Origin: an uncultured Gammaproteobacteria bacterium
Lineage (GTDB): Bacteria > Patescibacteriota > Microgenomatia > CAYXHB01 > CAZYTL01
NCBI GenBank assembly: GCA_964650355.1
Contig: CAZYTL010000002.1
Location: 109,465-173,464, forward strand
Length of the DNA stretch: 64,000 bases
Direction of reading: 5' to 3'
The notes under the pieces are model-generated. The model ran no database searches. It was given only the letters and a program-made list of their open reading frames with translations, and was not told where the DNA came from. Below are positions 15,424-60,047 of the stretch, piece by piece. Within the stretch, counting starts at the first letter, position 1; each line of letters starts with the position of its first letter. The position numbers and the translations under genes are program-made.

Positions 15424-15427
15424 TCCA

Positions 15428-27077: not shown

Positions 27078-27089
27078 GACAGACCCATT

Positions 27090-29321
27090 TTAAATGTTAT
27101 CTTCTAAATGTTTCAATTCATCAACAGCGGGCTGGAAGTCAGGATGATATTGTAAAATATTCTTCACCTCTTGTAGGGCTTCCTGAAAAAAGCCGCCTTT
27201 TTCATATACCTGGACCAGTTGCCAACGGGGTTCCACGGCTAACGGTTCCAGAAAGGTGGCTTTGAGCAATAATTTATACGCCTGATCTAATTCAAATTGA
27301 TCTATTAATTTTTTGGCTTGAGCCAGATACTCTTGGCTAGACTTTCCTTGAGAACCGGTTTGGTAGTCCTGCTTGCCTTGATAGGCGGATAATTGACTGA
27401 GTAATCTGGCCGGTTCCGGATAGCGGGGACTCAAAGAGGTGGCATAAGCGTAATTCTTGCGGGCTTGATCATGGTTGCCCAGATAAGCATAGATGGTACC
27501 GGTTAAGGTATGAAAATTGGCTAAATAGTCTTTAAATCCGGAAAGTAAATAGTTTCGGGGATCAATATGCATGGCGATCAGGTCCGCGGTAGGCTGATAA
27601 TCGAATTCACCAATCTGGTCAGGCACTCGGGTGACTACCTGATATAAATAACCGTGAGGAATTAAGAAAAAAGGATTTCCTTCCAAACCCAGATAGTCGA
27701 TATAAAAAGCAGAGGCTTCGGTAATGTAGGTAGGCCGATAGTGCAGGTTCCAGCTGGTCAGGTCAGCACTGAAATAAGGATTATCCTGATAGGTAAATCC
27801 GCGATATTGGGGGTGAGTTTCCAGAAAATAGCGGCGATAATGGCTATTTTTAATCAGCAAAGTGACATCGGGGCGCAAACCTTCCACTTGTTGCTCATAA
27901 AAAAGACTAAAACAGGAGACGTCGGCAAAACATAGAATCACGGCATTATCCTCTACTGAATTCAGGACTGATACGGCGTACTGATGGACAATGGAATTAT
28001 CCCTTTGATTAGCTATAGAAAAGTTTTCCACAAAGGGGTAAGCCGCCAAAATCAAGAGCCCGAGCAACAAGATATAGCTGAAAAGCTGAGATTTGAATCG
28101 GTGCAAGAAAGCACTTCCCAGCCACCAAAAACCCACCCCGATGGCCAGACCCCAAATTAACTCGCCTAGTAAGTATTGGCGATGGTTGATGCCGATCAGG
28201 GTTCGATATTCAAGATTTTGAGGTGTATTTTCAGGCAAACCTAAGCGGCCGGCAAACCAAACTCCGGCTACCAACCAACAGACTAACCAAAAGCAGCCTA
28301 AATAAAGTCTTTTTTTGAACAGCCAGATGGCGCCTAGTAATCCCAAGATCACTCCCAGATAAGTGAAGTGAGCAATTAAAAATCCGGGATATTGACTGAT
28401 TGCCTGAAAGAAAACTTCTTTACTGGTTCCCAATCCGTAAGCGCTCACATTGATGCCTTTATCAGGGATGAAACCGCTAAAATCCTTGCGAGTGATCATT
28501 CCGTACCAGCCCCAGAAGTTCTGACTAAATGCCCAAGAAAAGGCTGCTTTTTTGGCATTCAACCAGAAGAGCAACAAGTTGGGGAGGATGAAGCCTGCCA
28601 GTGCGGCCGCCAGGCTGATGATGACCGGCTGCCAACGCCAATAGACCAGCCACTTTTTTCGAAGATAAATGGTGAGCCCTCCCAGGAGTAGTAACCCGGG
28701 GAACAGCAAAGCAAACACGTGCAAATGCGACATGCCTAAACCAACTAATAAGCTGGTTAGCACCAGCCATTTAAATTCTAATGCGGTAAGTTTTTTCTCC
28801 TGTTTACTTGCCATGGCGGATTTCCTCCAATACAGAGCGGATAAAATGGTTAAGGCGGCGAACAGATTATTTAACGCCCCCACCTCGATCACTGACGCAT
28901 ACAGCCAAAATAGGGCTGAAAATCCTAAAACTAAGGCCCCGGCTGCAGATGCCAAGTGTTGCCAGGCAATCAGATGGGGCTTTGATTTTGGCTGGCTGCC
29001 AATGAGTTCCAAACCGATGAAATAAGCGAGCACCACGGTCAGGGCCTGCAAGACCGAACTTAACAGATGAGCTTTGAAAGCAGGACTGCCTGAAACGGGT
29101 AGCTGTAGAAAAAGGTGGATTAAAATTACTTGCAAAGGATAGCCTGAAGGATGAGGCACACCCAACAAATACCCAGTGGTAATTAACTCATCAGAGTCGG
29201 CATACCCCAGGTTTACTCTTCCGGCAGTATATGAATAAATCCCGAGAACAATGATAAATATGCTGAGAGGGAAGAGCCAACGAAGATTCCTCTGAGAAAA
29301 AAATCGGCCCATAAAGCTCAT
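27090..29321 (-). CDS. DUF2723/TMEM260-like GT-C membrane protein with C-terminal TPR (paralog 4 of 5)
   Basis: YADSDELITTGYLLGVPHPSGYPLQ; ILCFADVSCFSLFYEQ; TPR-like C-terminus. Confidence 0.6.
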   Translation of the reverse strand: MSFMGRFFSQRNLRWLFPLSIFIIVLGIYSYTAGRVNLGYADSDELITTGYLLGVPHPSGYPLQVILIHLFLQLPVSGSPAFKAHLLSSVLQALTVVLAYFIGLELIGSQPKSKPHLIAWQHLASAAGALVLGFSALFWLYASVIEVGALNNLFAALTILSALYWRKSAMASKQEKKLTALEFKWLVLTSLLVGLGMSHLHVFALLFPGLLLLGGLTIYLRKKWLVYWRWQPVIISLAAALAGFILPNLLLFWLNAKKAAFSWAFSQNFWGWYGMITRKDFSGFIPDKGINVSAYGLGTSKEVFFQAISQYPGFLIAHFTYLGVILGLLGAIWLFKKRLYLGCFWLVCWLVAGVWFAGRLGLPENTPQNLEYRTLIGINHRQYLLGELIWGLAIGVGFWWLGSAFLHRFKSQLFSYILLLGLLILAAYPFVENFSIANQRDNSIVHQYAVSVLNSVEDNAVILCFADVSCFSLFYEQQVEGLRPDVTLLIKNSHYRRYFLETHPQYRGFTYQDNPYFSADLTSWNLHYRPTYITEASAFYIDYLGLEGNPFFLIPHGYLYQVVTRVPDQIGEFDYQPTADLIAMHIDPRNYLLSGFKDYLANFHTLTGTIYAYLGNHDQARKNYAYATSLSPRYPEPARLLSQLSAYQGKQDYQTGSQGKSSQEYLAQAKKLIDQFELDQAYKLLLKATFLEPLAVEPRWQLVQVYEKGGFFQEALQEVKNILQYHPDFQPAVDELKHLEDNI

Positions 29322-31510
29322 TTAGGAAACATTCCCAAGGCTGATTTGGCCTGTTGATTATTAGGGTCTAATAATAAGACGTTTAAAAACTCTTGACGCG
29401 CGAATTCGCTTTCACCCATTTGTAAATAAATACCGGCTAGTTGCAAGCGGGCTGGCACGCTGTGAGGATTGCCTGTGACAGCGCCCCAGGTGAGCAAGTG
29501 GGCCAGATCCAGACGGTTATTGGAGGCTTGTTGATTGGCTCCATCGAGCAAAGCCTGGGTGTCGGGAATGACGGCTCCGGGTTTAAACCGAATGTCAGGA
29601 TTGGAAAATTCTATGTCTTTCCGAATGGCGTCTACGTTTTCTAGTCCAGGCATTTGGTAAAACAGATTTGAGGCCAGGTTAAGTTCCTGACGAGCAAAAT
29701 CGCGATAACCGGCTTTGACATAAATAACGCTGTTAAACACCTGCTGTCTGGCAGCATTGGCTTTCATCCACACCTGCATCTGGCTGATGGTAGGCGGGTT
29801 AACTGCTAACAATTGTTGGCCTAAGGTTTGGTCTACCCGCGAGAGTTGATCAGGCATGGTTTTAACCAGTCGGCCATAATTGCCATGAGGCACGTAAAAC
29901 AAAAATCCGTTATTAATCCCCAATAAATCATAATAAGTACTGGTCAGGTCCACCACGTAAACTGGGCGCTGATCTATGTTCCAGGTGAGATAATCATAAA
30001 TCAAATAGGGATTGGCTGGATAGGCAAACTTGTGCAGATCTGGTTTTTGATCCAGTTTGTCTTTAACTAAGGGGTAAGCCGTGGGCAGGATAATGACATC
30101 CGGTCGGGTTCTCAGGATGGTTTGCTGGTATAACAAAGCAAAACAGGTGGTGTCGGAAAAACAAGCCAGTAGGCTGTTGGGTTCGACTTGGTTTAATATT
30201 TGGCCATAAAAGTCAGTAGTGATGGCAGCGGTTTGATAATTGATTTGGGAATTGACGGTTTTGATTCGCCAGGCCACGACTGCTAATAAGAGCAAAATTA
30301 AAATCGGGCCCGAGGTTTTCTGTTTGTTGGCCAGCACAGCCAAACCCCGCATTAAACGATGGGCCACCAGTAATAAACCCGGAGCCAAAAGCAAAGGCAG
30401 CCACATAAAGCCCAATAAGTATTGCCGGCTGTTATTGGCTTGCTGCCCGATATGCTGAGGCCAGCCCATCATGCCTACCAAGGCAACTCCTGTGCTTAAA
30501 TAGCCGATCAGGATGAGGACAAACAGTTTTTTATGATGGGCATAGACAGTCAGTAAACCAACCACGACAACTAAGACTACCAGCCAGCCAAAGTATTGGG
30601 TGATTAAGTGAAAGTAAGGAGGCAAGGCGGCCTGTAATTTGGCCCAGTTTAATTGAGCAAAGTAAGCATGGGTTTGTTCTCCGGTTTCCACCAAAGTGCC
30701 GGAAAATTCCTGACGGAAGATCATCCTCATTAAGCCGTTGACGCCGGGATCTATGTGCCAGGAAACCGGCGCTCCCCGGGAGGCAAACCACCAGAGGAGC
30801 AAAAAGGGGACCAAAAATCCGACCAGACCTGTAAACATCATTCTGATCAGGACATGAATGTTGAGTTGTTGTTTGTTCCAGAGCATGAGCAACAAGACCG
30901 CGGGCAGCATGAGCACCACGGTTTGGTGGTGAGATAAAGCCAGACCAAAGAGAAAGGAGAGCCGGATCCACCATTTAGCAGTGATGATTTCTGGCTGGAG
31001 TAAACCTAGAACCAGCAGGTAGATGATGACGGACACGAACAGGTTGTTCAAAGCAAAGACTTCGGTAATGGTGCTGTATTGCCAAAACAAGAAGGAGGCT
31101 CCTAAAAAGCTGGTACTGACAAAGGCGATTAGCAATTTTCCTCCGGGTGTGGACCAAAAAGATTTTTTAACCACTTTCCTGGTCCAGTAATCAACAATTT
31201 GCCAACAGGTGGCAAAAACAAAAGCCAGACTCAGGCTACCCAAAAAGGCGCTGAGTAAATGGCCTTTAGTGGCCACTGACAGTCCCAGAGGCAAGTGAGT
31301 AAACAAGAAAAGTAATAAAATGTACAAGGGATATCCTGGAGGGTGGGCTACTCCTAAGTGATAACCAACGGTTAGTAATTCGTCTGAATCAGCAAACCCG
31401 ATGTTGGTGGCGGGTAGGGTTCTGAGGTAGAAAAACAAGTAGAAGATGGCTACTGCGATCATGCCGTAGGCCAAAGGAGACTCAAATATCCGACTAGACC
31501 GGCCTTTCAT
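29318..31510 (-). CDS. DUF2723/TMEM260-like GT-C membrane protein with C-terminal TPR (paralog 5 of 5)
   Basis: FADSDELLTVGYHLGVAHPPGYPLY; LACFSDTTCFALLYQQ; stop overlaps next gene start by 4 nt (ATGA). Confidence 0.6.
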   Translation of the reverse strand: MKGRSSRIFESPLAYGMIAVAIFYLFFYLRTLPATNIGFADSDELLTVGYHLGVAHPPGYPLYILLLFLFTHLPLGLSVATKGHLLSAFLGSLSLAFVFATCWQIVDYWTRKVVKKSFWSTPGGKLLIAFVSTSFLGASFLFWQYSTITEVFALNNLFVSVIIYLLVLGLLQPEIITAKWWIRLSFLFGLALSHHQTVVLMLPAVLLLMLWNKQQLNIHVLIRMMFTGLVGFLVPFLLLWWFASRGAPVSWHIDPGVNGLMRMIFRQEFSGTLVETGEQTHAYFAQLNWAKLQAALPPYFHLITQYFGWLVVLVVVVGLLTVYAHHKKLFVLILIGYLSTGVALVGMMGWPQHIGQQANNSRQYLLGFMWLPLLLAPGLLLVAHRLMRGLAVLANKQKTSGPILILLLLAVVAWRIKTVNSQINYQTAAITTDFYGQILNQVEPNSLLACFSDTTCFALLYQQTILRTRPDVIILPTAYPLVKDKLDQKPDLHKFAYPANPYLIYDYLTWNIDQRPVYVVDLTSTYYDLLGINNGFLFYVPHGNYGRLVKTMPDQLSRVDQTLGQQLLAVNPPTISQMQVWMKANAARQQVFNSVIYVKAGYRDFARQELNLASNLFYQMPGLENVDAIRKDIEFSNPDIRFKPGAVIPDTQALLDGANQQASNNRLDLAHLLTWGAVTGNPHSVPARLQLAGIYLQMGESEFARQEFLNVLLLDPNNQQAKSALGMFPK

Positions 31511-49728: not shown

Positions 49729-51990
49729 GTGATGGGAAGAAAGAAGTGGGGATTGGTAATCGGGGGATTATTGATATTTGGTTTATGGATGGTAATAGGG
49801 ATATGGACGGACCCTACTCCAAGGATTGCAGGGACGGTAAAAGTATATGACCGCAATGGACAGTTGTTACACGAATCGGCCGGACAGGTAAGGAGTCAGC
49901 AGCCAGTGAAGCTGGATGAGATACCAAAGAATTTACAGCAAGCGGTAGTGATCACTGAAGATGCCCGGTTTTGGCAACATCAGGGAGTGGATGTGGCAGC
50001 TATTATCAGGGCGATAAGTCAAAACTGGCGAGCAGGTGAAATTGTTTCAGGGGCGAGTACGATTGAACAGCAGTTGGCAAGATTCACAGTCATCAGCCCC
50101 CAGAAGCCAGCACCGGTCACGTGGCAAAGAAAGGTCCGGGAACTGATCATGGCTTGGCGCTTGGGACAATCAAAATCTAAAGAGCAAATTTTAGAAGACT
50201 ATTTAAATGTGGTGCATTTGGGCAGAGGCAGGTACGGAGTGGAAGCGGCCAGTCAAGGTTATTTTGGTGAAGACGTGAGCCATTTATCTCTGTCTCAGTC
50301 AGCGCTGCTGGCAGGGATGATTGCTAATCCAAGTGAATTTGATCCTCTAAATCATCCTGACAAAGCCCGGCAACGACGCGACTTTGTGCTCGGGCAGATG
50401 GTGGCGAAAAAGTTAATTGATGAAGAAATGTATCACAGGGCAATCGCAGAGCCTCTACCCCAGGAGATGCACGACAAATCTTATTACATGCCGCATGCGG
50501 TAGAGATGATTGATAGGCAGTTGGACGAATTGGGAATTGATAAAAATTCTGGAGTTAAAGTGTTTACGAGTTTAGATCTGGGTTGGTATCGACTGGCACA
50601 GTCGATTGCTCAAAACCAGGTGGCAAGTTTAAAAGACCAGCACAATATCACCAATGCGGCAGTGGTGGTGATGGAAAATCAAACCGGTAAGATCAGGGTG
50701 TTGCTGGGAAGCGTGGATTATTTTAATCATCAAATAGAAGGCGAAAATAATATGGCCACGGCGTTGCGTCAACCGGGATCGGCCATGAAACCAGTGACTT
50801 ACGCGGCTGCTTTCCAAAGTAAAATTGCCACGCCGGCAACCTTGATCGAAGACGTGCCTAAGGTGTATATGACTCACGAAGGCAAAGGGTGGTTGCCACA
50901 TAATTATGACGGCCGTTACCGGGGAAATGTATTGGCACGGGAGGCCTTAGCCTCTTCTTATAATTTGCCGGCAGTGGAGATGTTAGAGAGGGTGGGGATA
51001 GAGAATTTCTTAGATTTGGCACATAAGATGGGAATCACCACCATGCAGGAGACCGACCGGTACGATCTGGCCTTGACTCTGGGAGGAGGAGAAGTGAGTT
51101 TATTAGAGTTAACTAATTTATACGCTACTTTTGCCAGAGGCGGACGGTGGTCGCCGATTACTTTTATTAATCAAATTACTAATGACCAGGGTGATATTTT
51201 ATACGAATCAAAAATTAGTAAGCCGGTACAGGTGTTGGATGCTGAAGTGGCTTGGTTAATTACAGATATTTTGAGTGATGCCCGGGCCAGGATGCCGACT
51301 TTTGGCGAAAAAAATCTTTTGGTAGTGAGCAGGCCAGCGGCGGTGAAGACAGGCACGACCACTGATTGGCATGACAATTGGACGGTGGGTTACACGCCTG
51401 ATTATACGGTCGGAGTGTGGGTGGGAAACGCGGATAATTCCGCGATGCAGGATCTGACCGGGGTAACAGGCGCGGCGCCGATCTGGCACCAGGAAATGGA
51501 AGAGTTGTTTAAATTTACTCCTAAAAGTGAGTTCGTAAAACCGGAAGGGGTTAAGGAAGTAGAAATTTGCGCCTGGGACGGTCTGCTGCCGACAGCGGCA
51601 TGTACTGAACGCTATCAAGAGGAGTTTATTGCTGGTACAGAACCAAAAGAATTTACGCCTTTGACGCAAAAACCCACCGTGGTGACGACCGGAGAATTGC
51701 AAATTATTAACCCTAAGTCAGGGGCAGTGTTTGCTATTAATCCGCCGGAAAAAAATCAAATTGTATTAGAAGCGGCCGCGAACCCGGAAATCAGGAAAAT
51801 AACCTGGACCTTAGATGGCAATGAACTGACTGATAAAGATTGTGCGGAATTGGATAAATATAGTTGTGTATGGACTCCAGTGTTGGGGAGTCATCGACTA
51901 TGGGCAAATTTTTATACTGACGACCAAGGGTGGGTGGAAACTCCAGAGATAGAATTTCAAGTGGTAGAACAGAAGGCTGGATGGGAATAA
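49729..51990 (+). CDS. pbpC: class A penicillin-binding protein (bifunctional transglycosylase/transpeptidase), PBP1C-like
   Basis: GT51 motifs EDARFWQHQGVD, GASTIEQQLAR, KEQILEDYLN; TP motifs SAMKP, SYN, KTGT; immediately upstream of A2M as in yfhM-pbpC loci. Confidence 0.8.
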   Translation: MMGRKKWGLVIGGLLIFGLWMVIGIWTDPTPRIAGTVKVYDRNGQLLHESAGQVRSQQPVKLDEIPKNLQQAVVITEDARFWQHQGVDVAAIIRAISQNWRAGEIVSGASTIEQQLARFTVISPQKPAPVTWQRKVRELIMAWRLGQSKSKEQILEDYLNVVHLGRGRYGVEAASQGYFGEDVSHLSLSQSALLAGMIANPSEFDPLNHPDKARQRRDFVLGQMVAKKLIDEEMYHRAIAEPLPQEMHDKSYYMPHAVEMIDRQLDELGIDKNSGVKVFTSLDLGWYRLAQSIAQNQVASLKDQHNITNAAVVVMENQTGKIRVLLGSVDYFNHQIEGENNMATALRQPGSAMKPVTYAAAFQSKIATPATLIEDVPKVYMTHEGKGWLPHNYDGRYRGNVLAREALASSYNLPAVEMLERVGIENFLDLAHKMGITTMQETDRYDLALTLGGGEVSLLELTNLYATFARGGRWSPITFINQITNDQGDILYESKISKPVQVLDAEVAWLITDILSDARARMPTFGEKNLLVVSRPAAVKTGTTTDWHDNWTVGYTPDYTVGVWVGNADNSAMQDLTGVTGAAPIWHQEMEELFKFTPKSEFVKPEGVKEVEICAWDGLLPTAACTERYQEEFIAGTEPKEFTPLTQKPTVVTTGELQIINPKSGAVFAINPPEKNQIVLEAAANPEIRKITWTLDGNELTDKDCAELDKYSCVWTPVLGSHRLWANFYTDDQGWVETPEIEFQVVEQKAGWE

Positions 51991-52051: not shown

Positions 52052-55000
52052 ATGGCGGAACAGGAGGTGCCGAGGGGTGGGATTGGGAATAAAGCGGTGG
52101 AAGACGTGGTTGCCAATTCACCCGACAGTTTACCGAATACTGATAAGGCGAAGTTCAGAGGTTTTAAATTGATGGGGTGGTTTCATGAAGATCACAGAAG
52201 GTTACGGCATTTATGGTTAGTGCCGATAATTTATTTGGGGATATGGGCCGGGAGATACGGGGAGCAAATCATTCGATGGCGGCAATCCGGACAGATTAAT
52301 CATCCACTGATGGGTAAGTATTGGCAATACCTGGGTGCAACCGGTTTACTGATGGCTCTGCTGATTTTAAGGTATCTGCGAGTGCCACTATTTATGAAAG
52401 CGCTGGAGGTGGCCAAAAGAATGATTGAGTCAATCGTGGTGAGGTTGACTAAATCGTTAATGAATTGGGGAACTGAATTTTTACACGCGCCAGTAAAACA
52501 AAAGTTGTTGAAGTTGAAACTGCCCTTGTTGTTAGTCATCCTTTATGTCGGATATGCGTTTTACGGTCATTTGTTCGCTCCGCCGAAGATCACGGTAACT
52601 TTTCCTGGTGATGATGGCAAAAACATTCCGGTAGACACGACGATAGAAATTCAGTTCAGCCGGGAGATGAACAAAGAGTCGGTAGAGAAAGCTTTTAGCA
52701 TTAATCCGGGAGTGCCAGGTAATTTTGATTGGGAAAGTGGAGGCCGGGTGATTTTCCAACCGAGTGAAAGCCTGGCTTTGCACCAGGAGTACACGGTAAA
52801 GATCGGACGATGGGCGATGTCATCCTGGATGATTCCCAAATTGGTCGATGACGAGTTTAGTTTCAATACCCTGGGACACCCCACGGTGCTGTTAGCCAGC
52901 CCGCAAACTGAAGCGTTAGATGAGTTGAATTCTATCACGGTGATGTTTGATCGGGCGATGATTCCACTGACTACGGCCACGAACAGCGCGCTCAAGCAAC
53001 CGGCTTTCACGGTCACCCCAGAAATTAAGGGCGAGGGCCGCTGGCTGGGAACGACTGCTTATCAATTCCGGCCCAGCGAGCCTTACCAATTGGCATCGAC
53101 GTACACTTACCGGGTGGAAGCGGGATTAAAATCTGAAGACGGAGGCGAACTCCAGGAACCGGCTGTGTTTTCCTTCTCGACTCCCCGTCCTCATGTGGTA
53201 GCGGTGTCGCCAGCCCGGGGTTACAAATATGCTAATCCGGTGGCGTCGGTTTCGGCGACGTTAAGTCAGACAGTGGATTTCAGTTCTGCTAAAGAAAATG
53301 TTAAACTTTTTTACTTAAACGGCATTAGTTATGATGAGGTGCCATCAAAATTAGTAGTAAATAAGGAACAAATCGGGTTATATCCATTAAGTCCTTTAAA
53401 GAGAGAAGGGCTATACGAGGTAAAAATATTTCCCGGGCTATTGTCTACTAATGGCCCCAATGGTTTAGAAAATGAATATAATTGGAATTTTAATGTGGCT
53501 AAATTACCAGAGGTGGTAAGTACTAATCCGAAAGATGGCGCTCAGGATGTGACCGGTGAGCATCTGATAGAAGTATGGTTTGCCACACCCATGGATGAGG
53601 ATTCGTTTAAGGACAGAGTGATTATTTCTCCGGCGCCCGACAGTAACCCCACTGAATATTTTTCCACCTATAATGACGCTAACCGATTAGCGATCGGCAC
53701 GTATTTGGGCCGGTCAAAAAACTATACCATCACGATCAGCGGGCAGGTTAAGGATCAGTACGGAGTAGCCCTGGGACAGGACTATACCTTTTCTTTTAGC
53801 ACAGCACCTTATCAGCCCAGTATCAGTATTCAGCCCAGTAATTTGTACTTTGCCACTTTTAATCAGCGAGTAGTACCCAGAATTGTGGCCAAGGTGGTGA
53901 ATGTAAACCAGGTCAGTTACCGGTTGTATAAGTTACCCAGGGAAGAATTTTTAAAGTTATTTAGATATAGATTTGACTATAATGTTAACAAAGATTTAAG
54001 GAATTGGCAGGCTTATGATACTTCAGGGTTGGAACTGGTCAGGGAGTGGGAGGAGAATTTTACCATTAACGATAATGTGCCGGTAAATGTGATTACCAAA
54101 GTGGAGATGGCAAACGGAGAAATGATTTCCCCGGGGTTGTATTTCCTGGAGGCAAAGATTCCTACTGGGAAGCACGATAACCTGGCCATGGTAGTGAGCC
54201 AGGCAGCTTTGACTTTGAAAACGGCAGCGCAGCAATCATTGGTTTGGGCAGTAGACCAAAGCAGCGGTCAGGTAATTCAAGGCATGAAACTGGAATTAGT
54301 TAATAAGTCGGGTACGGTCTTGGATCAGGGACAGACTAATCAAGACGGAGTTTATCTGTCGGACAAATCCTTGGGAAGTGTTGATAGTTACAGCAATCCG
54401 GTATTCGCTTTTGCCAGTAAGGATCCGGATGCGACGGTGGTGACGAATGCCTGGGGTGAAGGGATCAGAACCTATGATTTCGGATTGCAGCAGTATTATG
54501 ACCCTCAGGAGAGGGATGAATGGGGGACGCAAAGAAAATTAAAGTTGTATGTGATGCTGGATCGGCCCATCTACAGGCCGGGGCAGACGGTCTACTTCAA
54601 AGGAATCGCACGGGAAGATAACGACGGTAACTATCGGTTACTGGACCAGGCGAACCAAGTCCAAGTGGCGGTAATGGATGATCAGCAAAAATTGATTTAT
54701 AATTCGTCACTACCCATGACAGGATACGGGACTTTTTCAGGAAGTTTTGATTTGGGCAAAGAAGTTAGCGTGGGTTATTATCAGCTGAAAGTAAGTTTGC
54801 TAGGCAACGGATTTCAGCAACAATTCCAGGTTGAAGAGTACCAAAAGCCGGATTTTGAAGTCAAAGTGAGTAGTGATCGGCCCAATTATGTGACGGGCGA
54901 ATCTGCGGTGATGAGTGTAGATGCTAATTTTTATTTCGGGGCTCCTGTGGATGAGGCGCCGGTGCAGTGGACGATGACCACGATGGATGCGCCTTACAGA

Positions 55001-58000
55001 TGGTCAAAAGATACCCGGTTTGAATTTGGCGAATCTGACAGTTATTGGTACCGGCCGTGGTGGTATTTTACTGACAACTCTTATTATGGAGGGCAAAGAA
55101 TAGCTCAAGGTAAGGGCAAAACAGATGATAAGGGTCATTATGAAGTCATTAGGCCGCTCAATATTAGCGACAAGTCAACTAACCAACGCATCAGGATGGA
55201 AGCGGTGGTGGAAGATCAAAGTAACCGGTCGATTGCTAATTCCCAAGAATTTGTGGTTTATCAGGCAGGGCAATTAGTGGGCATCAAACCCGAACGCTAT
55301 TCTGGCCAAGTGGATAACGAAGCCAGAGTGGAAGTGGTGACGATTGATACTAATGGCCAGGAAATAGCTGACCGCCCGGTAACAGTGAATTTTTATAAGC
55401 GCACCTGGAATACGGTAAAAGAAAAAGATGAGGATACCGGAGAATTTTATTGGACGAGCAAGCCCAGCGATGAGTTAAAAGCTTCGCAGTCAGTGGTAAC
55501 CGGAGCTATCGGCAGGGCGACAGCGGCGTTTGTGCCTAACGAAGGGGGCAGTTATTACGTGACTGCGGAAAGCGTTGATAATGCCGGCAGGGTGTTTAAA
55601 TCAGGTACTTACTTATGGATTTCCGGCCATGGCTTTAGCGCCCGGAGGGACAACCACGACCGGATTGTGTTGGTGCCTGACAAGCAAACTTACTCCATCG
55701 GAGAGGTAGCCAGTGTGTACGCGGCAGTTCCTTATGAACAGACTACCGGGCTGGTAACGGTGGAACGGGCTAATGTGCTGGATTATCAAATAATCAGGAC
55801 CACGCCTGATAACCAGAATTTTTCAGTCGCGATTAAGGATAACTACTCGCCGAATGCTTATGTGTCGGCTTTGTTGGTCAAACCCGGGGCAGAGGTAAAG
55901 AATCCGGCTGAGTTTAAGATGGGAGTGACAGAGATCAGGGTGGATAATCCGAAAACTAAGGTGGGGGTATCAATTAATCCTGATAAACCCAAATACGGCC
56001 CGGGGGAAACCATGAAAGCAGTGATTAGCACCAAAGACGGAACCGGCAAACCAGTGCAGACGGAACTGGCAGTGGCCATGGTGGATCAGGCAGTGTGGAG
56101 TTTGGCCAGGGCAAGTTTGGCAGATGTTTACGAAACTTTTTACCGGCCGCGCAACTTGGGAGTCTATACCAGTCAGGGATTGACGATTTCCATGGACCGG
56201 ATTAATGCCAATGTTAACCTGGGAAGCAAGGGCGGTTCGGGTGGAGGATGTTTTACCGGAGAGACTTTGATTTTGATGGGCGACGGAAGTAAAAAGATGA
56301 TTAAGCAGGTGGCGACTGGTGATTGGGTGTTAACTCGCAAAAATGAGCAGACAGACGAGATGGTGTCGGCCAAAGTAGAGCAGGTATTTGTGCACGACGT
56401 AAACGAAATTTTGGTGATTAATGATCAGTTACAAACCACAAGGGTACACCCGATTTACACCCAGAGAGGTTGGTTAACCGCGGGCGAGTTGCAAATCGGA
56501 GACCAGATGATGGATAGAGACGGCCACTGGGTGATAGTCACTAAGTTAGATGTGCAACAGACTGCCAAACGGGTGTATGATTTGGCAGTTGGTCAGTATC
56601 ACACTTATTTTGCCGGTGACATCTGGGTGCATAACAAAGGCGACGGTTTGATGACCAGCAGGGAGAATTTTCTGGATACGGCTTACTGGGAAGCGCATTT
56701 GGAAACTAATAATCAGGGACAGGCGGAAATTAACGTTGATTTGCCGGATAATCTGACCACCTGGAGACTGGCCGGGGTAGCGGTGAGCAAGGAAACAGCC
56801 GTGGGTAGTACTGAGAAGCAGGTGTTAGTGACCAAAGATGTGTTGATTCGGCCATTGTTGCCAAGATTTTTGTCCGTAGGAGATAAACCGCAACTAGGGC
56901 TGGAAGTGCATAATACCACGGGAGCAGGACAAAATCTGCAGACCAGCTTGATGGATGTGTCAGGTTTGCAGTTGCAGGCAAGTGTGAATCAGCAAATTTA
57001 TGTGCCGGCTGGTGGTTCGCGGCAGGTGTTCTGGCCGGTAACAGTAGCTGGAGGAGAAGAAGCTAAATTAACCATGGTGGTGCGCAATAATGGTCAGGTG
57101 GTTGATGCAGTAACCAAGACCCTGCCAGTGAAATCTTACTTTACTCCGGAAACAGTGGCCACGGCCGGTCAGGCAGCTGATGTGGGACAGGAAACGATTC
57201 ATTTACCAGCTGATGTGGTAGCTGATCAGGGATCTTTAACCATTGGACTGTCCCCTGCCTTGGGCGCTGGAGTCCAAGACGCGGCCAGTTATTTACTTGA
57301 TTATGCTTACTGGTGCGCTGAACAGACGGTTAACCGACTGATGCCGGCAGTGAATTTACTGCAATTGGCGCGGGAAACTAAGACGCAGACAATTGGCGGC
57401 CAGTCAACCGCCAGATTGGAACAGCTAGCTAATGATGCGATCCAAAGACTGGTGAGGAGCCAACACCCGGATGGGGGTTGGGGCTGGTGGCCCACTTACC
57501 CGTCCAGTCCGATGATCTCCACCATGGTCATGGATGGGTTATGGGCAGCTAAGAGTTATGGATTAACAGTGCCGGAACAAACAATCAGTCAAGGATGGGG
57601 ATATTTAAAGCGGTCTTTATCATCAGACCAGGAATCTCTGGATGTGCAGGCGTATATAGCGGCCACGGTATCGCAGGCAGAAAAGGTCGACGCTGGTGTG
57701 CTCTCCGGATTGATGGACCGGAGATGGGAAATGAAGTTACTGGGAAGAGCATATTTGTGGCTGGCCATAGAGCACAACGGGGGCAATCGCCAGGACGAGT
57801 ATCGATTAAGAGATGAGTTGTTATCGCAAGCCCGCAAGACTAATACATCGGTGCATTGGGAAGAGGAGAAGACTAATTGGTGGTTAATGAGTAGTTCCAC
57901 TACATTGACATCGGCCGTATTAGAAGGACTAACAGAAAACGATCCGCAACATCCTTTAATTTCAGAGACGGTCAGGTGGTTGATGCAGGTGCAACAAGAC

Positions 58001-58744
58001 GGACATTGGCGAACCACCAGGGATACAGGCGCGGCAGTGAAGGCGTTGACAAAGTTGTTATTGGCACAAAAGGCCGGATCGGTGGATGAACAATGGAAAT
58101 TAGAAGTTGATAACCAGCGTAGGGATGAAGGAGCATTCAAGACCAGCGATTTGTTGAAACAGGTGGTGAATACTATTCCCATAGCCGAAATTCCCAAAGT
58201 TCAAGACGTGCCGGTGACCATTAGTAAAAGCGGCAAAGGCAATCTGTTTTATAATATGAATCTGAAATATTATCTGCCGTTTGAACAAGTGGAGCCTCTG
58301 GAGCAAGGCATGGTGATGGTGAGAGAACTGGTGGACAAGAAAGGCAACCTGCTGCCGCCGGATAAGGTATCCACAGCAGATGAGATTTGGGTGCGACTGA
58401 TTCTAGTCACCCCGGATGAACGACACCACCTGGTACTGGAAGATCCGTTACCGGCTGGATTTGAGCCGGTAAATGAGAGTTTGGCCACCACATCATTGAT
58501 GAACGTGGAGCGACTGACCAGACCCAAGGACAGGAAGCCATTATATTTCCAACATCAAGAAATGCGGGATGACCGAGTGGTGCTGTTTGCCGAATGGGTG
58601 CCGGCCGGAGTGTACGAGTATACTTACCGGGTGAGGCCGACGACTCCGGGAAGTTATCATCATCCTCCCGCTCAAATTTATAACATGTATTTGCCTGATA
58701 TCTCCGGACATTCGGCTGGGGGATGGTTGGAAGTGACTGATTAA
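52052..58744 (+). CDS. alpha-2-macroglobulin family protein (bacterial A2M), membrane-anchored, with intact CAEQ thioester motif and an inserted Hint domain in the bait region
   Basis: N-terminal TM; MG-type repeats; post-bait A2M signature FLDTAYWEA…LPDNLTTWRLAG (cf. human FPETWIWD…PDTITEWKAG); thioester YAYWCAEQ at 57314..57325; C-terminal A2M receptor-binding-like domain. Confidence 0.85.
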   Translation: MAEQEVPRGGIGNKAVEDVVANSPDSLPNTDKAKFRGFKLMGWFHEDHRRLRHLWLVPIIYLGIWAGRYGEQIIRWRQSGQINHPLMGKYWQYLGATGLLMALLILRYLRVPLFMKALEVAKRMIESIVVRLTKSLMNWGTEFLHAPVKQKLLKLKLPLLLVILYVGYAFYGHLFAPPKITVTFPGDDGKNIPVDTTIEIQFSREMNKESVEKAFSINPGVPGNFDWESGGRVIFQPSESLALHQEYTVKIGRWAMSSWMIPKLVDDEFSFNTLGHPTVLLASPQTEALDELNSITVMFDRAMIPLTTATNSALKQPAFTVTPEIKGEGRWLGTTAYQFRPSEPYQLASTYTYRVEAGLKSEDGGELQEPAVFSFSTPRPHVVAVSPARGYKYANPVASVSATLSQTVDFSSAKENVKLFYLNGISYDEVPSKLVVNKEQIGLYPLSPLKREGLYEVKIFPGLLSTNGPNGLENEYNWNFNVAKLPEVVSTNPKDGAQDVTGEHLIEVWFATPMDEDSFKDRVIISPAPDSNPTEYFSTYNDANRLAIGTYLGRSKNYTITISGQVKDQYGVALGQDYTFSFSTAPYQPSISIQPSNLYFATFNQRVVPRIVAKVVNVNQVSYRLYKLPREEFLKLFRYRFDYNVNKDLRNWQAYDTSGLELVREWEENFTINDNVPVNVITKVEMANGEMISPGLYFLEAKIPTGKHDNLAMVVSQAALTLKTAAQQSLVWAVDQSSGQVIQGMKLELVNKSGTVLDQGQTNQDGVYLSDKSLGSVDSYSNPVFAFASKDPDATVVTNAWGEGIRTYDFGLQQYYDPQERDEWGTQRKLKLYVMLDRPIYRPGQTVYFKGIAREDNDGNYRLLDQANQVQVAVMDDQQKLIYNSSLPMTGYGTFSGSFDLGKEVSVGYYQLKVSLLGNGFQQQFQVEEYQKPDFEVKVSSDRPNYVTGESAVMSVDANFYFGAPVDEAPVQWTMTTMDAPYRWSKDTRFEFGESDSYWYRPWWYFTDNSYYGGQRIAQGKGKTDDKGHYEVIRPLNISDKSTNQRIRMEAVVEDQSNRSIANSQEFVVYQAGQLVGIKPERYSGQVDNEARVEVVTIDTNGQEIADRPVTVNFYKRTWNTVKEKDEDTGEFYWTSKPSDELKASQSVVTGAIGRATAAFVPNEGGSYYVTAESVDNAGRVFKSGTYLWISGHGFSARRDNHDRIVLVPDKQTYSIGEVASVYAAVPYEQTTGLVTVERANVLDYQIIRTTPDNQNFSVAIKDNYSPNAYVSALLVKPGAEVKNPAEFKMGVTEIRVDNPKTKVGVSINPDKPKYGPGETMKAVISTKDGTGKPVQTELAVAMVDQAVWSLARASLADVYETFYRPRNLGVYTSQGLTISMDRINANVNLGSKGGSGGGCFTGETLILMGDGSKKMIKQVATGDWVLTRKNEQTDEMVSAKVEQVFVHDVNEILVINDQLQTTRVHPIYTQRGWLTAGELQIGDQMMDRDGHWVIVTKLDVQQTAKRVYDLAVGQYHTYFAGDIWVHNKGDGLMTSRENFLDTAYWEAHLETNNQGQAEINVDLPDNLTTWRLAGVAVSKETAVGSTEKQVLVTKDVLIRPLLPRFLSVGDKPQLGLEVHNTTGAGQNLQTSLMDVSGLQLQASVNQQIYVPAGGSRQVFWPVTVAGGEEAKLTMVVRNNGQVVDAVTKTLPVKSYFTPETVATAGQAADVGQETIHLPADVVADQGSLTIGLSPALGAGVQDAASYLLDYAYWCAEQTVNRLMPAVNLLQLARETKTQTIGGQSTARLEQLANDAIQRLVRSQHPDGGWGWWPTYPSSPMISTMVMDGLWAAKSYGLTVPEQTISQGWGYLKRSLSSDQESLDVQAYIAATVSQAEKVDAGVLSGLMDRRWEMKLLGRAYLWLAIEHNGGNRQDEYRLRDELLSQARKTNTSVHWEEEKTNWWLMSSSTTLTSAVLEGLTENDPQHPLISETVRWLMQVQQDGHWRTTRDTGAAVKALTKLLLAQKAGSVDEQWKLEVDNQRRDEGAFKTSDLLKQVVNTIPIAEIPKVQDVPVTISKSGKGNLFYNMNLKYYLPFEQVEPLEQGMVMVRELVDKKGNLLPPDKVSTADEIWVRLILVTPDERHHLVLEDPLPAGFEPVNESLATTSLMNVERLTRPKDRKPLYFQHQEMRDDRVVLFAEWVPAGVYEYTYRVRPTTPGSYHHPPAQIYNMYLPDISGHSAGGWLEVTD
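56249..56635 (+). other. Hint (mini-intein / bacterial intein-like) domain, aa 1400-1528 of the A2M protein
   Basis: Block A CFTGETLILMGDG, block B LQTTRVHPIYTQRGWLTAGELQIGDQM (TxxH), blocks F/G VYDLAVGQYHTYFAGDIWVHN; no homing-endonuclease insert; +1 residue Lys; preceded by Gly-rich linker GSKGGSGGG. Confidence 0.75.
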
Positions 58745-58763: not shown

Positions 58764-60047
58764 ATGAAGAAGATACTGGAGTCGCATTTACTGTGGTGGA
58801 TATGTTGGTTAGTGGTGTGGGTGGTATTGGCTTGGTTGATGGTAAGTTTCCGGGATCCGGACTTTGGCTGGCAATGGCGAACAGGTGAATGGATCTGGCA
58901 ACATGGGCAAATCCCTAAAACGGATTTGTTTTCTTACACCATGCCTGATTATCCCTGGCATTATCCGGCCTGGCTGGCAGAGGTGATGTTTTACTGGATT
59001 TATATCAGGTTAGGTTATACAGGCCTAGCAATCGGGTTGGCAGGATTGGTGAGCATAGGGTGGGTGTTACAGATTCCTAAAATGAAGATGAAGTACTATC
59101 TGTTACCTTTGGCGCTGGTAATGGCCGCAGGAGGATGGTTGATATCAGTGAGAGCCAAGATGTTGAGTTTGTTGCTGGCAGGAGTGCTTTTTTGGATATT
59201 AAGAAAGGCTGAAGATAAACCGCAATGGTTATGGGGGTTACCCGGGTTGTTTTGTCTGTGGAGTAATTTGCACGGTGGGGTAGCGATCGGGTTGGTAATT
59301 TTGGGTTGGTGGATAATAACGGAGTTATCAGTTTTTAGTTTTCAGTTTTCAGATCTCAGAAAAGAACAGACAAGATTTAAGAAACAAGAGAGAGACATTT
59401 GGATGAAGAGAATCATTGGGGTGGGTTTAGGGTCGGGATTGGCTTCATTAATTAATCCCTTTGGTTGGCGAGTTTATGAGGAGGTTTATCAAACGCTAAC
59501 CAGCAGGCAGCTGCAAGGGCAGGTAAATGAGTGGTTGCCGATCAATGTGCATAATCCGGCATTGATAGTTTATGTGTTAGGATTAGGAATTTTGGCTGTC
59601 AAATGGCGGAAGAAATTATCCTGGTTTGAGGTATCCACCAGTGCGGGTCTGTTGGTGGGAAGTTTGTTCAGCAGGCGACTGTTGGTTTATTTTTTGTTGT
59701 TTAGTTTAGCAATTTACGGCCGGTTATTAGAGCGGGCGGTTGAATGGTTGAAAAGCAGAAAGGAGTATCAATTTATTTGGCTGTGGCGATCAGGATTGGT
59801 GATCGGGGGATGCTTATGGGCAGGCTGGTTAATTTGGCACACCCAGAAAGACTTAACCCAGGTAAGCGAAACTAATTATTATCCCATGAAAGCGGTCGAG
59901 TATTTGAAGCAACATTTGCCGGAAGGAGAAATGTTTTCGGTTTATAACTGGGGCGGATATCTGATTGACAAGCTGCCCGAAAAACAGGTATTTGTAGACG
60001 GGAGAATGGCGATTTGGGAAAAGGATGGTTATTCGGCTTTTAGATAG
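58764..60047 (+). CDS. polytopic membrane protein (possible GT-C-like), 20 nt downstream of A2M
   Basis: 427 aa, ~9 TM helices plus C-terminal soluble domain; probable co-transcription with A2M. Confidence 0.4.
   Translation: MKKILESHLLWWICWLVVWVVLAWLMVSFRDPDFGWQWRTGEWIWQHGQIPKTDLFSYTMPDYPWHYPAWLAEVMFYWIYIRLGYTGLAIGLAGLVSIGWVLQIPKMKMKYYLLPLALVMAAGGWLISVRAKMLSLLLAGVLFWILRKAEDKPQWLWGLPGLFCLWSNLHGGVAIGLVILGWWIITELSVFSFQFSDLRKEQTRFKKQERDIWMKRIIGVGLGSGLASLINPFGWRVYEEVYQTLTSRQLQGQVNEWLPINVHNPALIVYVLGLGILAVKWRKKLSWFEVSTSAGLLVGSLFSRRLLVYFLLFSLAIYGRLLERAVEWLKSRKEYQFIWLWRSGLVIGGCLWAGWLIWHTQKDLTQVSETNYYPMKAVEYLKQHLPEGEMFSVYNWGGYLIDKLPEKQVFVDGRMAIWEKDGYSAFR

What the first reader, a model, noticed from the sequence alone, without database searches (positions are those of the whole stretch)
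56249..56635. Complete Hint (mini-intein-like) domain inserted precisely at the bait-region position of the A2M: a candidate self-cleaving bait
Residues 1400-1528 of the A2M carry all splicing and cleavage blocks of a Hint domain. These are Cys1 (GGG|CFTGETLILMGDG), block B TxxH (LQTTRVHPIYTQRGWLTAGELQIGD) and a terminal His-Asn (…YHTYFAGDIWVHN|K). There is no endonuclease domain, and the +1 residue is Lys, not Cys/Ser/Thr. This is therefore a BIL-type or cleavage-only Hint rather than a splicing intein. It is flanked upstream by a Gly-rich flexible linker. Immediately downstream is the conserved post-bait A2M motif (FLDTAYWEA…DNLTTWRLAG, equivalent to human FPETWIWD…TITEWKAG). The Hint domain therefore occupies exactly the protease-bait loop. 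Predicted consequence: autoproteolytic N- and/or C-terminal cleavage, or thioester-mediated transfer at Cys1400, could cut the bait without an attacking protease. That would make the A2M trap auto-activating or conditionally activated, or would generate a second reactive thioester in addition to the TED CAEQ. I do not know of a described A2M with a Hint domain in its bait region.
Basis: partly seen in the sequence, partly recalled or inferred. Interest (0 to 1): 0.92.

Follow-up and report, generated by a model that had tools for sequence, protein, structure and literature searches.

The report
Self-processing Hint domain in macroglobulin bait
A bacterial protease-trap protein (alpha-2-macroglobulin) carries a complete intein-like self-cutting domain in the loop that normally acts as its trigger. 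The same design recurs in well over a hundred divergent relatives, mostly from ultrasmall CPR bacteria, and I found no paper that describes it.

Summary
Nt 56249-56635 encode aa 1400-1528 of a 2230-aa thioester-type bacterial A2M. This is a complete mini Hint domain: Pfam PT-HINT E=1.5e-20, and the best solved relative is the C. thermocellum type-A BIL 2LWY. It has Cys1, block-B TxxH, terminal His-Asn, +1 Lys and no endonuclease. It lies between A2M_BRD and the A2M/MG8 domain, inside a predicted disordered loop that aligns with the ECAM bait.

It is not a one-off or an artefact. Of the 150 best cluster representatives in a 1.84-billion-protein search, 133 have a Hint at the same site. Gly-1, Cys1, the block-B His and His-Asn are invariant, +1 is almost never a nucleophile, and Lys at +1/+2 is conserved. 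Named carriers are mainly Patescibacteria.

Close relatives with an exactly empty site also exist. L024 is 72% identical to Hint-bearing L003 and nests within a Hint-bearing clade with 100% bootstrap.

The domain is very probably catalytically active. What it does to the bait is unresolved. My best guess is BIL-type self-excision with amine-mediated re-joining. No paper describing this architecture was found.

The parts
52052..58744 (+). A2M gene, 2230 aa: N-terminal hydrophobic anchor, Big_5 x4, bMG3, MG2, bMG5, bMG6, A2M_BRD, Hint, A2M(MG8), TED, bMG10
   Evidence: ORF, translation, Pfam. ECAM and SaA2M are the best solved relatives.
52208..52582 (+). N-terminal hydrophobic segments (aa ~53-70 by eye, 96-115 and 152-177 by hydropathy). 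Putative membrane anchor. No Cys is present here, so there is no lipobox.
   Evidence: Kyte-Doolittle scan and Cys census. Topology is inferred, not shown.
55670..56101 (+). A2M bait-region domain (Pfam A2M_BRD, aa 1207-1350)
   Evidence: E=1.6e-15. Well folded in the AF2 model.
56168..56248 (+). N-side flexible bait segment ending in SKGGSGGG (aa 1373-1399); Gly1399 is the -1 residue
   Evidence: pLDDT<50 for aa 1373-1397. Gly-1 in 132/132 and Gly-2 in 123/132 family members. Aligns to the ECAM bait.
56249..56635 (+). Hint / type-A BIL (PT-HINT) domain, aa 1400-1528
56249..56251 (+). Cys1400 (block A nucleophile), one of only two Cys in the protein
   Evidence: Cys1 in 124/124 aligned Hints, each with exactly one Cys. 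Protein Cys census.
56438..56449 (+). Block B T1463-R-V-H1466 (TxxH)
   Evidence: T 99% and H 100% conserved in the family. Invariant in A1/A2/A3.
56630..56635 (+). Block G His1527-Asn1528 (C-terminal scissile Asn)
   Evidence: 100% conserved
56636..56674 (+). C-side linker KGDGLMTSRENFL (aa 1529-1541); Lys1529 is +1. The segment is homologous to the ECAM stretch (R956, G958, N963) that binds the C-terminal MG domain after bait cleavage.
   Evidence: pLDDT<50 for aa 1531-1541. K at +1/+2 in at least 124/132. ECAM alignment and Fyfe 2015.
56678..56941 (+). A2M family domain (MG8), aa 1543-1630, begins with DTAYW...PDNLTTW
   Evidence: Complement C4/C5 align from here, immediately after their anaphylatoxin region.
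57314..57325 (+). Thioester motif C1755-A-E-Q in the TED
   Evidence: CxEQ at the expected distance in 109/130 Hint-bearing relatives.
58565..58690 (+). MG10 motifs RDDR (aa 2172-2175) and YNMY (aa 2210-2213). In ECAM/SaA2M these shield the thioester and then bind the cleaved bait.
   Evidence: Motif role from PMC4498604.
49729..51990 (+). Upstream PBP1C-like gene (Transgly + Transpeptidase + BiPBP_C), same strand, 61-nt gap: the classical A2M-pbpC pair
   Evidence: Same arrangement in L004.

Best explanation
Residues 1400-1528 are a catalytically intact type-A bacterial intein-like (BIL, Pfam PT-HINT) domain. It is nested in the disordered bait loop of a membrane-anchored, thioester-type bacterial alpha-2-macroglobulin. 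The protein belongs to a large family, mostly in Patescibacteria (CPR), that carries the same domain at the same site.

Proposed mechanism:
1. After export and folding, Cys1400 turns the Gly1399-Cys1400 peptide bond into a thioester (N-S acyl shift, assisted by T1463/H1466).
2. Asn1528, assisted by His1527, cyclises and breaks the Asn1528-Lys1529 bond. The Hint thereby excises itself from the bait.
3. There is no +1 Cys/Ser/Thr, so classical trans-esterification is impossible. I think the most likely resolution is amine attack on the unhindered Gly thioester. The attacking amine would be either the new alpha-amine of residue +1 (as proposed for C. thermocellum BIL) or the epsilon-amine of the conserved Lys at +1/+2 (as in Tetrahymena BIL2).
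4. This re-joins the two A2M halves, which the BRD/MG8 scaffold holds side by side. The product is equivalent to the Hint-less alleles seen in close relatives and still needs a protease to fire.
5. Whenever ligation fails (hydrolysis or thiolysis), the bait is left severed. In ECAM-type A2Ms a severed bait is the activating event.

Shown: domain identity, completeness, position, family-wide invariance of the catalytic residues, and the existence of empty-site alleles. Inferred: that the reactions occur, their order and their outcome.
For: Identity and fold.

Position in the bait.

Family: 133 of the 150 best representatives carry a Hint at the same site, and 22 GTDB species loci do so.

Both junction chemistries are under selection. 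Cys1, block-B His and His-Asn are 100% conserved, Thr 99% and Phe2 99%. Mean pairwise identity is higher in the Hint (43%) than in the flanking A2M domains (34%).

+1 is Q/D/E/G/K in 126/130. Gly-1 is 132/132, Gly-2 is 123/132, and Lys at +1/+2 is at least 124/132. Hint-less alleles lack that Lys.

Vertical co-inheritance: in the long class, host and Hint identity correlate at r=0.63. The Mantel test gives 0/999 permutations at or above the observed value. The Hint nearest neighbour falls within the flank top 5 in 51/124 cases.

Empty-site orthologue: L024 is 72% identical to Hint-bearing L003 and nested at 100% bootstrap. It is an intact 2040-aa ORF with CNEQ and identical upstream bait sequence. 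Joined flanks therefore make a viable A2M.

Literature precedent: type-A BILs splice without a +1 nucleophile by aminolysis (PMC4031507). BIL2 ligates through a Lys epsilon-amine (PMC8616854).
Against: No experiment has been done on any member.

For characterised type-A BILs, cleavage products dominate over spliced product. That favours the severed-bait rival.

A purely self-removing element with no homing endonuclease, sitting in a deletion-tolerant Gly-rich loop, would be expected to be lost more often than is seen. Its long retention may mean it confers a function that I have not identified.

The conserved Lys could serve catalysis or structure rather than act as a nucleophile.

21 of 130 Hint-bearing relatives lack the CxEQ thioester yet keep an intact Hint. 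This hints at a role independent of the classical trap.

The alignment to the ECAM bait passes through low-complexity sequence and is only approximate.
Confidence: 0.45

Rival explanations
1. Self-cleaving bait. Hint autoprocessing ends in scission, not ligation. N-terminal thioester hydrolysis and/or Asn1528 cyclisation cuts the bait without any protease. This untethers the KGDGLMTSRENF segment and releases the TED from MG10. The trap then fires spontaneously or when a condition (thiol, pH, redox, metal) speeds the Hint reaction. Alternatively, cleavage is a maturation step that yields a two-chain protein, as furin does for C3/C4.
For: Cleavage products dominate for characterised type-A BILs.

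PT-HINT domains are generally read as release modules in polymorphic toxins (one search hit list; own knowledge of Zhang/Aravind).

The residues just after the Hint align with the ECAM residues (R956, G958, N963) that bind the C-terminal MG domain after bait cleavage. RDDR and xxMY are kept.

The Hint sits where complement C3/C4/C5 carry the anaphylatoxin domain, whose removal activates them. C4 and C5 align immediately downstream of the Hint.

Long retention in a deletion-tolerant loop, and stronger conservation than the flanks, suggest a selected function.
Against: A single cut would suffice to open the bait, yet both junction chemistries are invariant.

The conserved Gly-Gly / Lys flanks look like a ligation pair.

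Hint-bearing and Hint-less proteins interconvert among close relatives with no change in the upstream bait or the rest of the machinery.

Constitutive self-firing would waste the thioester unless the target is always adjacent.
Confidence: 0.3
2. Trans-conjugation (Hedgehog / BUBL-like). The Gly1399 thioester is resolved by an external nucleophile. Candidates are a Lys of an attacking protease, a peptidoglycan stem-peptide amine or a host-surface molecule. The membrane-anchored N-terminal half would then become covalently attached through its C-terminal Gly. The Hint would be a second warhead alongside the TED thioester.
For: The Gly-Cys-Phe junction is the same tripeptide as the Hedgehog autoprocessing site (own knowledge).

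BIL2 conjugates its N-extein to other proteins through Lys.

Small TM + Cys-rich + GGG|Hint|K proteins with only a ~8-aa tail (P0174-176), and tandem Hint arrays, make most sense if the N-terminal thioester is the business end.

12 full-length Hint-bearing A2Ms have lost CxEQ but keep the Hint.

The only two Cys in the protein are the two thioester cysteines.
Against: There is no adduct-recognition region comparable to the Hedgehog sterol-recognition region.

The invariant C-terminal His-Asn is unnecessary for pure N-terminal transfer.

There is no experimental precedent in bacteria for such conjugation by a PT-HINT.
Confidence: 0.1
3. The Hint is an inert, folded insert (an enlarged or decoy bait). 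It does not autoprocess in its native context.
For: No biochemical data. Some BILs (the M. magnetotacticum element) did not splice with native flanks.
Against: All catalytic residues are invariant in about 130 sequences that are otherwise only about 43% identical. The Hint is more conserved than its host domains. An inert insert has no reason to keep Cys1, TxxH and His-Asn.
Confidence: 0.08
4. A canonical mobile intein, or an assembly or chimeric-contig artefact.
For: Clean in-frame insertion with an exactly empty site in a close relative.
Against: +1 is not Cys/Ser/Thr here or in 126/130 relatives.

There is no endonuclease.

NCBIfam intein_Nterm scores 17.0 (cut-off 24.5) and intein_Cterm 14.1 (cut-off 15.6); Pfam Intein_splicing scores 30.1 (cut-off 35.8).

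The insertion is in a disordered linker, not a conserved motif.

The identical protein is on independent contigs. GC of the Hint (46.5%) is close to that of the gene (48.1%).
Confidence: 0.02

Closest known systems
Type-A bacterial intein-like domain (C. thermocellum BIL4, PDB 2LWY; Pfam PT-HINT PF07591)
   Same: Best sequence match among solved structures (E=1.1e-14) and best structural match (TM 0.84). Shares Cys1, block-B TxxH, C-terminal His-Asn, the lack of a +1 nucleophile, mini size and a secreted host protein.
   Different: The host is an A2M and the site is its bait loop. Described BILs and PT-HINTs sit in adhesin-like or polymorphic-toxin proteins. The flanks here are strictly GG|C...HN|x-K-G.
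Tetrahymena thermophila BUBL BIL2 (PDB 6TMM/6Y75)
   Same: Hint fold (TM 0.77-0.80). The N-extein ends in Gly-Gly. The thioester is resolved by a Lys epsilon-amine to give an isopeptide. Here Gly-Gly precedes Cys1 and a Lys follows His-Asn.
   Different: BIL2 is eukaryotic, with ubiquitin-like exteins and only 23% identity. Whether the Lys here is a nucleophile is unknown.
Type I bacterial alpha-2-macroglobulins (E. coli ECAM/YfhM, Salmonella SaA2M)
   Same: Domain order, CxEQ thioester, RDDR and xxMY motifs, disordered bait between BRD and MG8, and a pbpC neighbour.
   Different: ECAM and SaA2M have no domain in the bait and are lipoproteins. This protein has no N-terminal Cys, has hydrophobic helices and four Big_5 domains instead, and is 2230 aa against about 1650.
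Complement C3/C4/C5 (anaphylatoxin domain at the bait-equivalent position; furin processing)
   Same: A globular domain is inserted at the position homologous to the A2M bait, and its removal drives the conformational change. C4 and C5 align immediately after the Hint. The role of ANA is from own knowledge.
   Different: ANA is removed by external convertases. A Hint would remove itself. The two domains are not homologous.
Canonical mini-inteins (e.g. Ssp DnaB)
   Same: Fold and blocks A, B, F, G. Presence/absence polymorphism with exact boundaries.
   Different: No +1 nucleophile, a non-conserved insertion site, an extracytoplasmic host protein, and scores below the intein model cut-offs.
Giant alpha-2-macroglobulins noted in CPR genomes (Vampirococcus lugosii and relatives)
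   Same: Large surface A2Ms in Patescibacteria, proposed to protect against host proteases (PMC9793634).
   Different: Those reports do not mention a Hint domain. I did not test whether those particular proteins carry one.

Membership tests
Hint superfamily, type-A BIL / PT-HINT | Hint fold recognised by family profile above curated threshold | tested here: met
   PF07591 scores 74.3 bits against a cut-off of 27.7. 2LWY E=1.1e-14. AF2 plus Foldseek gives TM 0.84 to 2LWY.
Hint superfamily, type-A BIL / PT-HINT | N-terminal Cys/Ser nucleophile and block-B TxxH | tested here: met
   Cys1400, T1463 and H1466. Conserved at 100%, 99% and 100% in 124 relatives.
Hint superfamily, type-A BIL / PT-HINT | C-terminal His-Asn (distinguishes type A from type B BIL and from Hog) | tested here: met
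   H1527-N1528, 100% conserved. Definition from PMC4031507.
Hint superfamily, type-A BIL / PT-HINT | No Cys/Ser/Thr at +1 | tested here: met
   Lys1529. +1 is C/S/T in only 4 of 130-132 relatives.
Hint superfamily, type-A BIL / PT-HINT | Autocatalytic cleavage and/or splicing | not testable with these tools
   Needs protein expression and mass spectrometry.
Canonical class-1 intein | +1 Cys/Ser/Thr for trans-esterification | tested here: not met
   +1 is Lys. Family-wide it is Q/D/E/G.
Canonical class-1 intein | Match to curated intein N- and C-terminal splicing models | tested here: not met
   TIGR01445 17.0 against 24.5, TIGR01443 14.1 against 15.6, PF14890 30.1 against 35.8.
Canonical class-1 intein | Insertion in a conserved functional motif of the host; homing endonuclease in mobile forms | tested here: not met
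   The site is a Gly-rich loop with pLDDT<50. At 129 aa there is no room for an endonuclease.
Type I (thioester) bacterial A2M | MG domains + BRD + A2M/MG8 + TED + MG10 in order | tested here: met
   ECAM and SaA2M match at E~1e-38.
Type I (thioester) bacterial A2M | CxEQ thioester motif; RDDR and xxMY motifs in the C-terminal MG domain | tested here: met
   CAEQ at 1755, RDDR at 2172, YNMY at 2210. Motif roles.
Type I (thioester) bacterial A2M | Lipoprotein signal peptide as in ECAM/SaA2M | tested here: not met
   The only Cys are at 1400 and 1755. The N-terminus has hydrophobic helices instead.
Type I (thioester) bacterial A2M | Adjacent pbpC (PBP1C) gene | tested here: met
   49729-51990 carries Transgly + Transpeptidase + BiPBP_C.
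Type I (thioester) bacterial A2M | Protease-triggered conformational change and covalent trapping | not testable with these tools
   Biochemical assay required.
Hedgehog/Hog autoprocessing domain | Hint followed by an adduct (sterol) recognition region; no C-terminal His-Asn requirement | tested here: not met
   The domain ends at His-Asn and runs straight into the A2M linker. PF01079 matches only the first ~50 residues. Only the G|CF junction is shared.

The most novel reading that the evidence does not exclude
The Hint is the trigger. In these CPR macroglobulins the protease bait has been supplemented by an internal, condition-gated self-cleaving module. The thioester protein would then fire without any attacking protease, or use the Hint's own Gly thioester as a second warhead. 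Ultrasmall epibiotic bacteria would use this to attach themselves covalently to a host surface or to their own wall. This would be a self-activating complement-like protein in bacteria.
Probability: 0.25. Interest if true: 0.9.

Novelty: new variant of a known kind. Interest (0 to 1): 0.7.

Why it matters
Alpha-2-macroglobulins and complement proteins are all thought to depend on an outside protease to cut the bait and spring the thioester. Here a self-processing domain sits in the bait of more than a hundred divergent proteins, concentrated in the poorly understood CPR bacteria.

Two outcomes are possible, and either is informative:
- The Hint re-ligates. This would be a clean natural case of nucleophile-free (possibly Lys-mediated) protein splicing in an exported protein. 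It would also give a compact new ligation module with minimal GG/K flanks.
- The Hint cuts. This would be a protease-independent, possibly conditional trigger for a thioester protein. It would bear on how epibiotic CPR cells deal with, or attach to, their hosts.

Natural filled and empty alleles (L003 and L024) provide ready-made controls. A single expression construct would decide between the two outcomes.

Tried and rejected
Led nowhere:
- The word-index homologue searches returned only 3-28 hits, mostly fragments. They missed the Hint-bearing family, which only the exhaustive phmmer search revealed. They therefore could not give the fraction of CPR A2Ms that carry the Hint.
- Exact look-ups of ten window proteins returned no organism names and no tRNAs were found. 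The source organism is inferred only from relatives (L002 Roizmanbacteria, L024 Woesebacteria).
- The first AF2 submission was too large and the afdb50 library was unavailable.
- The family-wide Mantel correlation between Hint and flank distances is significant but weak (r=0.27), because distances between 50%-identity cluster representatives are near saturation. The long-class subset is clearer (r=0.63).

Considered and rejected:
- Assembly chimera.
- Canonical intein.
- Degenerate or inactive Hint.
- Hedgehog-type domain.
- Recent horizontal acquisition: GC matches the gene and Hint divergence parallels host divergence.
- pbpC linkage as a feature of the Hint: it is seen only in the long class (window, L004) and not in L008, L010 or L018.
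Full report
**1. What is there**

The finding's coordinates are exact. Nt 56249-56635 on the + strand translate to CFTGETL...DIWVHN, which are residues 1400-1528 of one uninterrupted 2230-aa ORF (52052..58744).

Pfam reads the protein as a bacterial alpha-2-macroglobulin. The domains in order are Big_5 x4, bMG3, MG2, bMG5, bMG6, A2M_BRD (1207-1350), PT-HINT (1409-1528), A2M/MG8 (1543-1630), TED and bMG10.

On the isolated segment, PT-HINT scores 74.3 bits (E=1.5e-20, cut-off 27.7). The curated intein N- and C-terminal models and Pfam Intein_splicing stay below their cut-offs.

The closest solved protein is the type-A bacterial intein-like (BIL) domain of Clostridium thermocellum, 2LWY (E=1.1e-14).

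I built an AlphaFold2 model of aa 1200-1650 from a 45-sequence alignment (mean pLDDT 87.6).
- The Hint is very confident (block-mean pLDDT about 91-98).
- It is flanked by low-confidence (pLDDT<50) linkers of 25 residues (aa 1373-1397) and 11 residues (aa 1531-1541).
- Foldseek matches the model both to ECAM, SaA2M, CD109 and C5, and to 2LWY (TM 0.84), Tetrahymena BIL2 and the Ssp DnaB mini-intein.

**2. Position**

With the Hint deleted, the sequence aligns colinearly with ECAM. The ECAM paper's numbering equals the 5a42 chain index plus 39. I derived this by matching Arg923-Leu942, Arg956, Gly958 and Asn963 as named in PMC4498604.

On that numbering the insertion point falls at about D952-K955. 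That is inside the ECAM bait. It lies just after the stretch that is disordered in elastase-cleaved ECAM. It lies just before the residues that bind the C-terminal MG domain once the bait is cut. The alignment runs through Gly-rich sequence, so it is approximate.

The protein keeps CAEQ (1755), RDDR (2172) and YNMY (2210). The ECAM-type activation machinery therefore looks intact.

Complement C4 and C5 align from immediately after the Hint. The Hint therefore sits where C3/C4/C5 carry the anaphylatoxin domain (own knowledge).

The protein contains only two cysteines, Cys1400 and Cys1755. Both are thioester-forming positions.

A PBP1C gene lies 61 nt upstream on the same strand.

**3. It is a family, not an accident**

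The identical protein occurs on two independently assembled contigs and is sourced to NCBI as well as Logan (longest contig 174 kb).

An exhaustive phmmer search of 1.84 billion representatives with aa 1251-1713 returned 150 best hits. Of these, 133 carry a Hint at the same place. Pfam confirmed the BRD - PT-HINT - A2M order in five members. Because the query contains the Hint, this ranking favours Hint-bearing proteins.

There are two size classes:
- about 2200-2280 aa, like the window protein;
- about 1640-1800 aa, which is the majority.

Across roughly 124-132 members the junction and catalytic residues are highly conserved:

| Position | Conservation |
|---|---|
| Gly-1 | 100% |
| Cys1 | 100% |
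| Block-B His | 100% |
| His-Asn | 100% |
| Block-B Thr | 99% |
| Phe2 | 99% |
| Gly-2 | 123/132 |
| +1 | Q48 D41 E19 G11 S4 K3 N2 L1 A1 |
| Lys at +1 or +2 | at least 124/132 |
| Cys per Hint | exactly one in every Hint |

A CxEQ motif at the expected distance is present in 109/130.

A scan of GTDB species representatives found 22 Hint-bearing loci.
- Thirteen are labelled Patescibacteria/CPR: Roizman-, Davies- and Moranbacteria, Levyibacteriota, WWE3, Microgenomates, Saccharibacteria and the Patescibacteria group.
- Nine automated MAGs carry other labels that I could not verify.
- The Hint-less matches are Chloroflexota, Armatimonadota and Acidobacteriota, plus two CPR loci.

One member, P0032, is GenBank MBP7875549.1 from Candidatus Woesebacteria, annotated 'hypothetical protein'.

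**4. Evolutionary behaviour**

The Hint is more conserved than the A2M domains around it (mean pairwise identity 43% against 34%). Hint and flank distances co-vary:
- the Mantel test gives 0 of 999 permutations at or above the observed value;
- the Hint nearest neighbour falls within the flank top 5 in 51/124 cases, against about 5 expected by chance;
- in the long class, Hint identity tracks host identity (r=0.63).

This points to old, mainly vertical inheritance. The GC of the Hint (46.5%) matches the gene (48.1%).

Exactly empty sites nevertheless exist.
- L024 (Woesebacteria GW2011_GWB1_39_12) reads LGAKGGSGGG-GGEGGPETTREKF. Its 72%-identical relative L003 reads LGAKGGSGGG|Hint|QKDGGPETVREKF.
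- L024 is nested within Hint-bearing sequences (L003, L002, window) at 100% bootstrap.
- L024 is an intact 2040-aa ORF with CNEQ.
- Hint-less P0026 and P0028 also group with Hint-bearing members (92% bootstrap).
- L076 (Saccharibacteria) and P0187 are empty-site members of the short class.

The x-K-G tripeptide after His-Asn is present only when the Hint is present. It therefore belongs to the element.

The same GGG|C...HN|K flanks occur in tandem Hint arrays and in small TM + Cys-rich + Hint proteins. Hint-less Chloroflexota A2Ms already have a KGGGGGG linker at this spot. The bait was therefore pre-adapted as an N-extein.

**5. Mechanism**

These results establish a complete Hint of the type-A BIL kind, with every catalytic position under strong purifying selection, lying in the bait loop. 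The rest is inference.

Type-A BILs form the N-terminal thioester and cleave at the C-terminal Asn. They cannot trans-esterify because they lack a +1 nucleophile. They can still ligate by aminolysis, although cleavage products dominate in vitro (PMC4031507). Tetrahymena BIL2 ligates through a Lys epsilon-amine (PMC8616854).

I favour self-excision followed by amine-mediated re-joining (confidence about 0.45) for four reasons:
- both junction chemistries are invariant, whereas one cut would be enough to open a bait;
- the flanks form a Gly-Gly / Lys pair;
- the two exteins belong to one folded scaffold;
- proteins with joined flanks are viable, and they alternate with Hint-bearing ones among close relatives without any change to the upstream bait.

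It is favoured by the in-vitro dominance of cleavage. It is also favoured by the position of the C-terminal junction, directly before the segment that displaces the TED in ECAM. The unexplained long retention of the element in a deletion-tolerant loop points the same way.

Trans-conjugation through the Gly thioester (about 0.1) is suggested by the small Hint-terminal proteins and by 12 full-length members that have lost CxEQ but keep the Hint.

An inert insert (about 0.08) fits the conservation poorly. A canonical intein or an artefact (about 0.02) is effectively excluded.

**6. Novelty**

BIL/PT-HINT domains and bacterial A2Ms are each well known. Large A2Ms in CPR genomes have been noted as putative anti-protease proteins (PMC9793634).

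Full-text searches combining macroglobulin with Hint, intein, bait region, PT-HINT or CPR terms found no description of a Hint in an A2M. The library is incomplete, so this is absence in what could be searched, not proof of absence. Public annotations of members say only 'alpha-2-macroglobulin family protein', 'YfaS' or 'hypothetical protein'.

I rate this a new variant of a known kind: a known self-processing module in a new and mechanistically provocative host site, conserved across a large lineage.

**7. Verdict**

- Observation: confirmed.
Domain type and bait placement are right. The claim of uniqueness is wrong. The predicted auto-activation is plausible but not the best-supported outcome.
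- Interest: 0.7.

Noticed in passing
window 52052-58744 (aa 1400 and 1755): The whole 2230-aa protein has only two cysteines, and both are at thioester-forming positions (Hint Cys1 and the TED CAEQ). Each of 124 related Hints likewise has exactly one Cys.
   Followed up: partly
L024:5851-6390 and L003 ~6072-6516: L024 is an exactly empty site in a Woesebacteria orthologue that is 72% identical to a Hint-bearing one. The three residues after the site differ (GGE in L024, QKD in L003), so the x-K-x tripeptide travels with the Hint. Exact boundaries suggest allele replacement by recombination rather than random deletion.
   Followed up: partly
P0034 (Hint-less, long class): Its empty site reads GGSGGG-KGGGDD and so keeps the K-G that otherwise accompanies the Hint. 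This may be the footprint of a precise Hint loss.
   Followed up: no
P0001, P0003, P0005, P0006, P0007 (Chloroflexota-type A2Ms); P0029: Hint-less relatives have a poly-Gly run (for example KGGGGGGGG) as the core of the bait. This is an odd substrate for most proteases and might target Gly-Gly endopeptidases. P0029 has two Cys in this stretch (GGGGCEGGDCG).
   Followed up: no
P0032, P0050, P0065, P0069, P0081, P0084, P0120, P0122, P0160, P0165, P0167, P0168: Twelve full-length Hint-bearing A2Ms lack a CxEQ thioester motif at the expected position but keep all Hint catalytic residues.
   Followed up: no
P0004, P0015, P0017, P0143; P0174-P0176: Two other protein types share the same GGG|C...HN|K flanks and 35-46% identity to this Hint. 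One type is tandem arrays of 2-5 Hint domains joined by HN-K-G-G-G-C. The other is ~250-aa proteins made of a TM segment, a Cys-rich domain, a Hint and an ~8-aa tail. Their organisms and roles are unknown.
   Followed up: no
L003, L005, L006, L014, L016, L019, L004, L007, L017: Nine Hint-bearing loci come from automated MAGs labelled Gammaproteobacteria, Bathyarchaeia, Nevskiaceae or Bdellovibrionales. All other named carriers are Patescibacteria, so these labels look doubtful. They were not checked.
   Followed up: no
window 49729-51990 (+): A PBP1C-like gene lies directly upstream (the classical A2M-pbpC pair). The same holds in L004 (long class) but not in three short-class loci (L008, L010, L018).
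   Followed up: partly
window 20275-31510 (-): Five consecutive ORFs of 708-756 aa lie on the minus strand. The one tested (22633-24846) has a TMEM260-like protein O-mannosyltransferase domain. This is possibly a paralogous array.
   Followed up: no
window 9885-17467 (-): An ATP-synthase-like cluster has unusual members. One is a 664-aa ATP-synt_ab protein. Another is a 679-aa ORF that combines a Big_1 Ig-like domain with an ATP-synt_C (c-subunit) match.
   Followed up: no
window 58764-60047 (+): A 427-aa ORF starts 20 nt after the A2M stop on the same strand and has no Pfam match. It may be co-transcribed with the A2M.
   Followed up: no
window 56225-56248 and 56636-56647: The DNA flanks of the Hint encode K-G-G-S-G-G-G upstream and K-G-D-G downstream. 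This is a short K-G-G / K-G-D direct repeat at the protein level, reminiscent of the K-G-G-G linkers between tandem Hints.
   Followed up: no
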